DNA of 15,412 nucleotides from IMG/VR virus record IMGVR_UViG_641736224_000028, positions 1-15,412 of that record. One strand, given 5' to 3'. The stretch comes from a virus. Lineage: Duplodnaviria; Heunggongvirae; Uroviricota; Caudoviricetes. A program made the position numbers. Positions 3,001 through 6,000 of this stretch are shown in pieces. How positions within the stretch are numbered: the stretch's first letter is position 1; every line of letters begins with the position of its first letter.

Positions 3001-6000
3001 TGCATAGGAATATCCTTTTTCGTACTTTCAGTACGCATTATGGTTGAACTGAAAGTTTTTGCAAGTGCTTTAGTATCGTACTCATGGTTCAGAATGAAAA
3101 AGTGCGCAAAGAATTCGCCCAGCGGCTAGCGCAAGCCTGTAAAGAAGCTGGTCTTGATGAACATGGTAGGGGAATGGCTATAGCCCGTGCCCTTTCTCTT
3201 TCGTCCAAAGGCGTTAGCAAATGGTTTAATGCTGAGTCTTTACCGCGTCAGGAAAAAATGAATGCGCTTGCGAAATTTCTAAACGTTGATGTTGTTTGGC
3301 TTCAGCACGGCACTTCGTTAAATGGAGCGAATGATGAAGATACTCTTTCATTTGTTGGCAAATTAAAAAAAGGGTTAGTGCGCGTGGTTGGTGAGGCAAT
3401 TCTTGGTGTTGATGGTGCCATCGAGATGACCGAAGAGCGCGATGGGTGGCTCAAAATTTATAGCGATGATCCAGATGCCTTTGGTCTTCGTGTGAAAGGA
3501 GACAGCATGTGGCCCAGAATAAAATCAGGAGAATATGTACTCATTGAGCCTAACACCAAAGTATTCCCGGGTGATGAGGTGTTTGTCAGAACCGTTGAAG
3601 GACACAACATGATTAAGGTTCTTGGCTATGACAGAGATGGAGAATACCAATTTACAAGCATTAACCAGGATCACAGGCCTATAACGTTGCCTTATCATCA
3701 AGTAGCAAAGGTGGAGTATGTAGCTGGTATTCTGAAGCAATCTCGCCATCTGGATGACATCGAGGCAAGGGAGTGGCTGAAAAGTTCGTGACTTCATCGT
3801 CACATAGCTGGTAACCAGTGGCCTGAAGAGACGTTTGGGTAAGGAGGATAGATGGCGTTCAATGACCTTGAATATCAAGCAGTAAAAAAAGAAGTTCACC
3901 AATTCATTGAAAGCATAAGGCCGCCTGAACATATCCGCAATGAACTGGATATTGTTTATAGCATCAATGACCAAACGATAGATATCGGCGAACAGCGCCC
4001 CGTGTGGCAGGGCAATCCAGGTGAAACAAACATCCTGCCATCAGCAAGAATCAAGTACATACGTTCTCTGGATAGATGGAAAATCTATTGGATGCGGAAG
4101 GATATGAAATGGCATCAGTACAGTACTGAACTTTCGCTGACTGATGCGCTTGAGCTTGTGCGTGCTAACCCGGATTGCTGCTTCTTCGGATGAGTGAAGA
4201 GACGTTTGGATGATGGATGGTCGCAGAGATGCGGCCTGATTCTAAAATAGGATATAAAAAATGAGAATACTAGGTGTTAGAGCGGCGCCCAAAGTTACAT
4301 CTTTTGTTGTATATTGCACTAATGAGTCTGCACTCAAATGTGTTGATGTTATTAAAATACCTTCGACCTTAGACACACCAGAAAAATTAAAGTATGTGAG
4401 AAATAACATCCTCGACATTCTTAATTTATATAATGTTGAATTAGCTGCCATACGCGTTACTGAATCAAACTCTGATAATCTTAGCATTGACCGCCTTTAT
4501 ATAGAAGCTGTTATTCAAGAAGCATTTTCAAGCAGTGATGTAAGAAAATATTACACTATTAGAAAATCTGGCATGAAATCATCATTGAACCTAACAGAGA
4601 TCGAGTATAAAGAAATATTGAAGTCACACCGCAATATAAATGGAATCGATAATTCTGGTTTTACAACTGAAACAAATGAAGCTGTTTTGGCTGCACTATC
4701 TGCGGAGGTAAGGGGATGCTAACTCCATACAAAAGAGCTGATGTAGAATTCGAATGGATTAGTGATCTAGAAGAACAGGGTTGTTTTTCAAAAGTATATC
4801 TGGCTCATGACAGACACCTAGCTCATGACTTGGTGATTAAAGAAATAGAAAAAAAAGAAAACACTAACCACGACGACTACTTTAATGAAGCAAGGCTTCT
4901 CTATAAACATGCACATCCAAATATTGTGCAAGTTCAGTATGCTGCTCAATGTGAGAGCAATATCTATATAGCCATGCCATTTTATCATAATGGTTCGCTA
5001 AACCAATTAATGAAAAAAAATAATCTTACAAGCAGGGAGATAATACGGTATTCCATTCAATTTTTAAGTGGACTTTATCATATACACTCAAAAGGTCTTA
5101 TGCATTTTGATATAAAACCTAATAACATTATGATATCAAACAGAAATGAGGCCATGCTATCTGACTTTGGATTATCTCAGTTAGTCAATGAGGAATCGAG
5201 AGCTGCGCCTGAGTTTGGATATCATTTTCATGTGCCACCGGAATATTTTTCTTTATCAACAAATGATTATAATTTCACATATGACATATATCAGGCAGGA
5301 TTAACCATATATAGAATGTGTGTTGGACATGATAATTTTGAAAGAGAAAGATCTGCATTTAGCACGATTGAACAACTCAGAGAGTCGATAATTAATGGCT
5401 GCTATCCATTAAAAGAGTATCCTCCCCATATACATAAAAAATTAATAACAATAGTGAACAAATGCATTCATGTAGATCCAAATGAAAGATATCAATCCGT
5501 ACTAGATGTACTAAACGATCTCTCAGCTATAAGTGATGGCGTTCTTGACTGGCGTCTACAGATGACGAAACCAACTAACGGCACATGCGAATGGCAAAAA
5601 AAGTCTGGGGACGCTATACTGTCTATAGTTTTTGACGCAGAAAATTCGTCTACTACTGGTTTTCGTTTATACGATGATGGGCGGAAAAGGCGTGCTACGA
5701 ACTTAACAATATCCTCAGGATGTACCCCTACAAAACTGTATAGGTTATTAAAGGATAACTGATCATGAAAAAGCGCGAGGAAGTAAGCAAGCTGCCTCGC
5801 AGACGTGATGCAGCATTAGCGGTTCCCTACAAAAAAGATGAGTTCATAAGCCCTTCTGATGACAAAAAATTTTCAAAGGCGAAAAGTTTTACATCTACAT
5901 CTCTAAAAGATAAATACTTTAAAATCTAGCCCGGCCTCAGCGCCGGGTTTTCTTTGCCTCACGTTCGCCCACCTAAAAAACATAACCAATTGTATTTATT

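What the first reader, a model, noticed from the sequence alone, without database searches (positions are those of the whole stretch)
3021..3083. Compact OR with perfect 15-bp palindrome and apparently leaderless cI
Seen in sequence: CGTACT-ttc-AGTACG (3021..3035) is a perfect palindrome; its 9-bp core ACTTTCAGT reappears inverted at 3048..3056; a third partial dyad lies at 3071..3083. PR hexamers (TTGCAA/CATAAT, 16-bp spacer) overlap these sites. The cI ATG (3084) directly follows a TAGTAT -10-like hexamer with no Shine-Dalgarno sequence, implying a leaderless PRM transcript, as is known for lambda cI. The whole switch fits in ~78 bp between the two start codons.
Basis: partly seen in the sequence, partly recalled or inferred. 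Interest (0 to 1): 0.45.

Follow-up and report, generated by a model that had tools for sequence, protein, structure and literature searches.

The report
Known 933W phage right operator switch

Summary
The region is the right operator (OR) of the 933W immunity type. CI and Cro are 100% identical to 933W, and the 111-bp switch differs at one base (3036 C vs T), outside the operators. GenBank annotation of 933W, phi24B and phage 32 places 15-bp operators at 3021-3035 (OR1), 3045-3059 (OR2) and 3077-3091 (OR3). Papers I could read report five natural operators and in-vitro affinities.

It is the PRM -10 hexamer plus the left half of OR3, and it breaks in all 10 relatives with a different sequence there. 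The real OR3 is centred on the A of the cI ATG and is kept in all of them, and in HK022.

A leaderless cI message is plausible. No Shine-Dalgarno sequence is present. A TAnnAT -10 sits a fixed 7 nt before the ATG across 8 genera. The phi24B record marks the pRM start 1 nt before the ATG. I could not read the primary mapping data, so this stays an inference.

The feature is already known, and interest is low.

The parts
3021..3035 (.). OR1, the highest-affinity 933W repressor site: CGTACTT-T-CAGTACG. It covers the predicted PR start point.
   Evidence: Annotated oR1 in 933W AF125520, phi24B and phage 32. Nearly unchanged in the 9 relatives with a homologous OR1: 6 identical, 3 differing at 1-2 tolerated positions. 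PMC3317979 calls OR1 the tightest natural site.
3045..3059 (.). OR2: TGAACTG-A-AAGTTTT. It fills the PR spacer and contains the PRM -35-like hexamer.
   Evidence: Annotated oR2. It is the only site with A at position 2 of one half-site, as PMC3317979 states for OR2. Conserved in relatives.
3077..3091 (.). OR3: CGTACTC-A-TGGTTCA. It is centred on the A of the cI ATG, and its right half is cI codons 1-3.
   Evidence: Annotated oR3/OR3 in three GenBank records. The dyad is kept in all 12 relatives, with changes only at tolerated positions. HK022 has the same layout.
3037..3064 (-). PR: -35 TTGCAA (3064-3059), 16-bp spacer, -10 CATAAT (3042-3037). Predicted start about 3030/3029.
   Evidence: Promoter scan. 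933W 'pR' annotation. Both hexamers conserved in relatives. The start point is inferred from spacing.
3049..3076 (+). PRM: weak -35-like CTGAAA (3049-3054) inside OR2, and -10 TAGTAT (3071-3076).
   Evidence: 933W 'pM' and phi24B 'pRM' annotation. TAnnAT is kept at the same distance from the ATG in 11 of 12 relatives while the middle two bases vary. It scores 8 of 12 to consensus, below the scan threshold.
3083..3084 (+). Predicted PRM transcription start, at the ATG or 1 nt before it.
   Evidence: phi24B record HM208303 marks 'pRM transcription start' at the base equal to window 3083. Pyrimidine-then-A is conserved at 3083/3084 in all relatives. Not verified experimentally here.
3084..3791 (+). 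cI repressor, 235 aa, with HTH_3 and Peptidase_S24 domains.
   Evidence: Pfam. 235/235 identical to 933W CI. Anti-SD pairing of the upstream 20 nt is +0.6 kcal/mol.
2778..3005 (-). cro, 75 aa, with an AGGA Shine-Dalgarno at 3016-3013.
   Evidence: 75/75 identical to 933W Cro. HTH hits. SD pairing -5.4 kcal/mol.
6126..6164 (.). OL with two operators only: 6126-6140 CGTACCAATAGTTCT and 6150-6164 CGAACTATTGGTTCA. They overlap PL (TTGATA 6140-6145, CATTAT 6163-6168).
   Evidence: Motif scan and promoter scan. The literature reports five operators in all for 933W.

Best explanation
Positions 3006-3091 are the right operator (OR) of a 933W-immunity lambdoid prophage, a switch of the HK022 architectural type.

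CI dimers bind three 15-bp sites of the form N-G-W-A-C-Y-N-N-N-R-G-T-W-C-N. OR1 (3021-3035) lies over the PR start point and OR2 (3045-3059) lies in the PR spacer, so together they shut off leftward cro/cII/O transcription. OR2 occupancy goes with activation of the weak PRM (-10 TAGTAT, 3071-3076). OR3 (3077-3091) is centred on the cI ATG and on the likely PRM start, so its occupancy shuts off cI. Because 933W CI binds non-cooperatively and has similar affinities for OR2 and OR3, repressor levels stay low and the prophage induces easily.

Basis of each step. Shown by published work on the identical protein and operators: binding, the affinity order OR1 > OR2 > OR3, PRM activation and autorepression. 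Shown here: sequence identity, site positions and conservation. Inferred: the PRM transcript starts at 3084 or 3083, so cI is translated from a leaderless or 1-nt-leader mRNA.
For: - CI and Cro are 100% identical to 933W. The OR DNA is identical except at 3036, which is outside the operators.
- Three independent GenBank records annotate OR1, OR2 and OR3 at these coordinates.
- My ten half-sites reproduce the statistics given in PMC3317979: A and C invariant at positions 4 and 5, G at position 2 except in one OR2 half-site, and T in 7 and C in 3 of 10 at position 6.
- Affinities and PRM regulation are described in PMC3317979 and PMC5977221.
- Phylogenetic footprint across Escherichia albertii, Salmonella, Pectobacterium, Cedecea, Phaseolibacter, Xenorhabdus, Serratia and Dryocola: the operators, the PR hexamers and the PRM TAnnAT are conserved while other positions drift.
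- In 80 IMG/VR loci the variants fall outside the operators or at tolerated positions 1, 3 and 7.
- HK022 has the same layout, with oR3 centred on the cI ATG.
- For leaderless cI: anti-SD pairing is +0.6 kcal/mol for cI, against -3.3 to -12.1 for seven other genes in the window, and it is -3.1 or weaker in every relative. The start codon is AUG. The -10 ends 7 nt before the ATG everywhere. phi24B is annotated with the pRM start at -1.
Against: - I could not read the primary footprinting and transcription papers (Koudelka 2004, Tyler 2004, Bullwinkle 2011). The experimental basis therefore comes second-hand from later papers and GenBank features, and some of those features are labelled 'putative'.
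- A different annotation (Stx2 phage I, AP004402) places 17-bp 'putative operators' and a PRM inside cI.
- PRM matches consensus poorly, 8 of 12.
- OR2 would be centred near -32 of PRM, not -42 as recalled for lambda. Lambda-style activation is therefore not obviously compatible with this PRM assignment.
- No held paper states that 933W cI mRNA is leaderless.
Confidence: 0.9

Rival explanations
1. One reading: the third repressor site is the dyad AGTA-tcg-TACT at 3071-3083, directly over the PRM -10 and ending before the cI ATG.
For: The 4+3+4 dyad is present in the window and in identical copies. It shares the GTACT half-site with the real operator.
Against: The dyad is broken in all 10 relatives whose sequence differs there. 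The 15-bp dyad at 3077-3091 is kept in all of them. Three GenBank records and HK022 place OR3 on the ATG. The half-sites are in the wrong order (AGTA..TACT, where the operators read GTAC..GTAC outward-in) and at the wrong spacing for the published 15-bp site.
Confidence: 0.02
2. cI is not translated from a leaderless message. Either the functional maintenance transcript starts well upstream (from another promoter, or read-through from PRE) and translation initiates without an SD on a leadered mRNA, or PRM lies elsewhere.
For: - No mapped 5' end could be read.
- PRM is a weak consensus match.
- A PRE-like promoter at 2617-2649 would give a leadered cI mRNA, seen by eye.
- The OR2 centre at about -32 is an odd position for an activator.
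- The AP004402 annotators chose a different PRM.
Against: - The TAnnAT pattern, with the variable middle typical of a -10 element, is conserved exactly 7 nt before the ATG in 11 of 12 relatives from 8 genera and in HK022.
- Y-then-A at the predicted start is invariant.
- phi24B is annotated with a start at -1.
- Colon et al. 2016 draw a PRM start site for 933W, citing Koudelka 2004.
- A leaderless repressor has been shown by 5' RACE for a similar divergent switch in another O157 prophage.
Confidence: 0.2
3. The palindrome is a chance inverted repeat, or an RNA hairpin or terminator, and not a protein-binding site.
For: 6-3-6 inverted repeats occur at the chance rate in this window (3 against 3.5). 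The terminator scan lists 3021-3035 as a weak hairpin followed by a T-rich stretch.
Against: The motif recurs five times at the two early promoters. It is identical to the experimentally characterised OR1. It is conserved where the flanks drift. The predicted PR transcript starts inside it, so it cannot form the hairpin.
Confidence: 0.01

Closest known systems
Phage 933W OR (Plunkett 1999 annotation AF125520; Koudelka 2004; Tyler 2004; Bullwinkle & Koudelka 2011; Bullwinkle 2012, PMC3317979)
   Same: Same element. CI is 235/235 and Cro 75/75 identical. The OR1, OR2 and OR3 sequences are identical, as are PR, PRM and the two-site OL.
   Different: One substitution, 3036 C against T, sits just downstream of the PR -10 hexamer. 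C is the commoner allele, in 50 of 80 IMG/VR loci. Here the immunity cassette sits in a YYZ-2008-like backbone, not the 933W backbone.
Phage HK022 OR (Oberto 1989, X16093; Carlson & Little 1993)
   Same: Same architecture. There are three 15-bp operators of the same consensus (TGAACTTATGGTTCA). The OR1-OR2 centres are 24 bp apart. oR3 is centred on the cI ATG, and a -10 (TATAGT) ends 7 nt before the ATG.
   Different: The CI N-terminal domain is only 50% identical. The OR2-OR3 spacing is 33 bp against 32. HK022 CI binds cooperatively and loops, whereas 933W CI is reported not to bind cooperatively. HK022 has extra operators.
Phage lambda OR / PRM and its leaderless cI mRNA
   Same: Divergent cI and cro, three operators, PR repressed and PRM activated then autorepressed. 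The cI has no SD and an AUG at or next to the transcript start.
   Different: Lambda operators are 17 bp with unrelated sequence. From my own recollection of the lambda map, not a tool result: the PR and PRM starts are about 82 bp apart (about 55 here), OR2 is centred near -42 of PRM (about -32 here), OR3 lies in the PRM spacer and not on +1/AUG, OL has three sites, and binding is cooperative.
paaR2/ydaS switch of cryptic prophage CP-933P (PMC8630535)
   Same: A short divergent intergenic region (97 bp) with PR- and PRM-like promoters. The repressor mRNA was shown to be leaderless by 5' RACE and N-terminal sequencing.
   Different: The repressor family and operators are different. It serves only as a precedent that such repressors in O157 prophages can be leaderless.

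Membership tests
933W-type (HK022-architecture) lambdoid OR | Divergent cI (HTH + S24 peptidase) and cro (HTH) genes flank a short control region | tested here: met
   Pfam hits. 100% identity to 933W CI and Cro. 78 bp between the start codons.
933W-type (HK022-architecture) lambdoid OR | Three 15-bp rotationally symmetric operators with conserved positions 2-5 (G-W-A-C) | tested here: met
   Sites at 3021-3035, 3045-3059 and 3077-3091. Half-site statistics equal those stated in PMC3317979. GenBank features coincide.
933W-type (HK022-architecture) lambdoid OR | PR and PRM promoters interleaved with the operators | tested here: inconclusive
   PR scores 9 of 12 and is conserved. PRM scores only 8 of 12, but its TAnnAT is conserved at a fixed position. 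Promoter activity cannot be tested here.
933W-type (HK022-architecture) lambdoid OR | A second operator cluster (OL) with two sites at PL, upstream of N | tested here: met
   6126-6140 and 6150-6164 overlap TTGATA/CATTAT. 933W is reported to have five operators in all.
933W-type (HK022-architecture) lambdoid OR | CI binds these sites, represses PR, and activates then represses PRM | not testable with these tools
   Published for the identical protein and operators. The primary papers are not held.
Leaderless mRNA (lambda cI type) | No Shine-Dalgarno sequence upstream of the start codon | tested here: met
   Anti-SD duplex is +0.6 kcal/mol for cI, against -3.3 to -12.1 for seven other genes. 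It is -3.1 or weaker in all relatives.
Leaderless mRNA (lambda cI type) | AUG start codon at the 5' end | tested here: met
   ATG at 3084, invariant in all relatives. The protein alignment starts at M1-V2.
Leaderless mRNA (lambda cI type) | The transcript 5' end coincides with the start codon | not testable with these tools
   The only evidence is -10 geometry (the hexamer ends 7 nt before the ATG) and a phi24B GenBank feature placing the start 1 nt before the ATG. I found no mapped 5' end in any readable paper.

The most novel reading that the evidence does not exclude
The promoter-operator geometry of this 933W/HK022-type switch differs from lambda's in a way that may not have been explained. 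The predicted PR and PRM starts are only about 55 bp apart, so the two -35 hexamers cross over. The PRM -35-like hexamer sits in the centre of OR2, putting OR2 at about -32. OR3, the PRM start and the cI AUG coincide on one base.

If the PRM assignment is right, CI cannot activate PRM from the lambda position. 'Activation' might then be relief of occlusion by RNA polymerase bound at PR, or an opposite-face contact over the -35 region. cI translation would also be obligatorily leaderless across the family. The evidence here does not exclude this reading. The Koudelka, Friedman or Little papers that I could not read may already cover it.
Probability: 0.15. Interest if true: 0.4.

Novelty: already known. 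Interest (0 to 1): 0.1.

Why it matters
This switch sets how readily 933W-type Stx prophages induce, and therefore how much Shiga toxin an O157:H7 strain releases, so the locus is medically relevant. It has been sequenced, annotated, footprinted and modelled since 1999-2012. Finding it again in another O157:H7 prophage adds nothing new. The report makes two modest contributions. It corrects the position of OR3. It also provides a cross-genus footprint showing that 'OR3 centred on the AUG, with a -10 exactly 7 nt upstream and no SD' is conserved across the family.

Tried and rejected
- I tried to read Koudelka 2004 (PMC524892 and DOI), Tyler 2004 (PMC524894 and DOI), Bullwinkle & Koudelka 2011 (PMC3133280), Plunkett 1999 (PMC93574) and Carlson & Little 1993 (PMC206910). 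None is held.
- Full-text searches for '933W' or 'HK022' with 'leaderless', and for a mapped PRM start, found no direct statement.
- My first operator pattern had the wrong spacer (N5) and found nothing relevant. The corrected pattern (N3) worked.
- The viral-contig scan returned almost only near-identical copies. It was useful for allele counts but not for divergence.
- I rejected the operator-like single hits at 79, 5499, 12448 and 13500. They are isolated, each has a mismatch, and the two I checked (5499, 12448) carry A or G at position 6, which PMC3317979 says binds poorly.
- I rejected the AP004402 17-bp 'putative operators' and its PRM placed inside cI. They do not fit the conserved 15-bp dyads.
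- I rejected a downstream alternative start for cI. The ATG at 3094 is out of frame, the GTG at 3102 has no SD, and the protein alignment is conserved from M1.

Full report
**What is in the sequence**

The window carries a lambdoid early region drawn in reverse of the usual lambda map.
- On the minus strand: cro (3005-2778), cII (2639-2343, Pfam Phage_CII), an O-like replication gene (2162-1341) and a helicase.
- On the plus strand: cI (3084-3791, HTH_3 + Peptidase_S24), a DUF3024 gene, a eukaryote-like Ser/Thr kinase (4716-5762), N (6418-6801), recombination genes, xis and int.

**Is it more than chance?**

A single 6-N3-6 inverted repeat is not. The window has three, and shuffles give 3.5 +/- 1.7. 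The site is also not a perfect 15-bp palindrome, because the central TTC is asymmetric.

The recurrence is what is non-random. The pattern GWACYNNNRGTWC with up to one mismatch gives 9 hits against 2.8 expected (2 of 200 shuffles reach 9). Five of the hits form two tight clusters. One is at 3022-3090. The other is at 6127-6163, immediately upstream of N and overlapping a TTGATA/CATTAT promoter.

**Identity**

Megablast finds the 1.55-kb immunity region at 98.5-99% identity in phage 933W, Stx2 phage 86, phi24B and about 100 other Stx-phage records. CI is 235/235 and Cro 75/75 identical to the 933W proteins. The 111 bp around the switch differ from 933W at one base, 3036 (C here, T in 933W).

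The 933W GenBank record, shifted by 802 bases, places oR1 at 3021-3035, oR2 at 3045-3059, oR3 at 3077-3091, pR at 3037-3064 and pM at 3049-3076. The phi24B and phage 32 records annotate OR1 and OR3 at the same coordinates; phage 32 also places OR2 at 3045-3059, while phi24B puts it 1 bp further right, at 3046-3060.

The whole window is 99.9% identical to a prophage in E. coli O157:H7 FRIK944. It is a mosaic: a YYZ-2008-like backbone carrying the 933W immunity cassette.

**Check against the literature I could read**

PMC3317979 describes the 933W CI site as 15 bp and rotationally symmetric about a central base pair. It reports five natural sites and these half-site properties: positions 4 and 5 (A, C) invariant; G at position 2 except in one half of OR2; T in 7 and C in 3 of the ten half-sites at position 6; and OR1 deviating from consensus at positions 3, 3' and 7'. 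The ten half-sites I extracted from 3021-3035, 3045-3059, 3077-3091, 6126-6140 and 6150-6164 reproduce every one of these statements. These are therefore the published operators.

The same group reports the following:
- relative dissociation constants in intact OR of 1 : 13.6 : 26.4 for OR1, OR2 and OR3;
- no cooperative binding;
- activation of PRM through OR2 and repression through OR3;
- about 34 repressor molecules per lysogen.

**The third site**

I collected relatives to test it:
- two Salmonella phages, at 85% and 72% DNA identity;
- ten genome loci from E. albertii, Pectobacterium, Cedecea, Phaseolibacter, Xenorhabdus (two), Serratia, Dryocola and Salmonella, plus a 452-bp contig labelled Xanthomonas pisi that is identical to the window and is probably contamination.

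In the alignment, OR1, OR2, the PR hexamers and a 15-bp dyad centred on the A of the cI ATG are conserved. Other intergenic positions drift. NGWAC...GTWCN at 3077-3091 is intact in all twelve. Changes within it fall at position 3/3' (T or A, which is also the wobble base of Val-2), position 1 and the centre. These are the positions the binding study calls tolerant. Variants among 80 IMG/VR copies follow the same rule.

HK022, sequenced in 1989, has the same plan. It has three 15-bp oR sites, oR3 (TGAACTTATGGTTCA) is centred on the cI ATG, and TATAGT ends 7 nt before that ATG.

**Leaderless cI**

Evidence for:
- The 20 nt upstream of the ATG have no anti-SD complementarity: +0.6 kcal/mol, against -3.3 to -12.1 for seven other genes in the window. 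No relative has an SD either.
- The hexamer ending 7 nt before the ATG reads TAGTAT, TACTAT, TATAAT, TAATAT, TAAAAT, TATCAT or TATTAT in the relatives. T-A-n-n-A-T is fixed and the middle varies, which is the signature of a -10 element. It holds in 11 of 12 relatives.
- The base before the ATG is always a pyrimidine and the A is invariant, which suits initiation at the A.
- The phi24B record marks 'pRM transcription start' at the base equal to window 3083.
- Colon et al. 2016 draw a PRM start for 933W, citing Koudelka 2004.
- A comparable repressor in another O157 prophage is leaderless by 5' RACE.

Evidence against:
- I could not read any primary mapping data, and no held paper calls 933W cI leaderless.
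- PRM matches consensus at only 8 of 12 positions.
- A start at 3083 would leave a 1-nt leader.

I rate leaderless or 1-nt-leader cI at about 0.7-0.8.

**Geometry, noted but not resolved**

PR should start near 3029/3030 and PRM near 3083/3084, so the two starts are about 55 bp apart. The PR -35 (3059-3064) lies inside the PRM spacer. The PRM -35-like CTGAAA is the centre of OR2, which puts OR2 near -32 of PRM. OR1 and OR3 each sit on a start point.

From my recollection of lambda, which is not a tool result, the corresponding figures are about 82 bp and -42. This is the only aspect that might still hold a mechanistic question, namely how CI at OR2 stimulates PRM. It may already be addressed in the papers I could not access.

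**Verdict**

The element is the well-known 933W/HK022-type OR. The third operator was misplaced by 6 bp, and the leaderless claim remains a good inference. Novelty: already known. Interest: low.

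Noticed in passing
window 2617-2649 (+): A candidate cII-dependent establishment promoter (PRE): TTGC-N6-TTGT at 2617-2630, straddling the cII start codon (2639-2637, minus strand), with a -10-like TAAGAT at 2644-2649. It would send a long antisense-cro transcript into cI, which has no SD. Read by eye.
   Followed up: no
window 6126-6168 and 5928-5949: OL has only two operator matches (6126-6140, 6150-6164), which overlap PL (TTGATA/CATTAT). A GC-rich terminator hairpin at 5928-5949 corresponds to the 933W 'tM' terminator that ends the cI-stk operon.
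   Followed up: partly
window 3036: This is the only difference from 933W in the switch: C instead of T, one base downstream of the PR -10. It creates an in-frame ATG (3038-3036) upstream of cro, giving the 86-aa ORF 2778-3038. That ATG lies upstream of the predicted PR start. C is the commoner allele, in 50 of 80 IMG/VR loci and most cross-genus relatives.
   Followed up: partly
window 1-2300 versus 2303-about 6800 versus the rest: Mosaic prophage. The replication genes (helicase, O-like) and the recombination-to-int segment match phage YYZ-2008/phi330 at 99.2%. The cII-cro-cI-stk-N cassette matches 933W-type Stx phages. The whole window is 99.9% identical to a prophage in E. coli O157:H7 FRIK944.
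   Followed up: partly
window 4115-4129: A perfect 7-1-7 palindrome, TCAGTACAGTACTGA, lies inside the DUF3024 gene. It contains GTAC twice but not in the operator register. Significance unknown; it may be chance.
   Followed up: no
window 4716-5762: A eukaryote-like Ser/Thr protein kinase (stk; Pkinase E = 2e-46) lies downstream of cI. PMC3430580 states that stk expression is under pRM control and occurs only in stable lysogeny.
   Followed up: no
L007 (Salmonella phage MS2 LVA) 725-1513: A repressor with a 933W-like N-terminal DNA-binding domain and 933W-like operators, but an unrelated C-terminal domain. This is an example of domain shuffling between repressor modules.
   Followed up: no
L017 (Xanthomonas pisi DSM 18956 contig, 452 bp): A 452-bp contig in a Xanthomonas assembly is identical to the E. 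coli 933W-type OR/cI start. It is most likely assembly contamination and not a Xanthomonas prophage.
   Followed up: no
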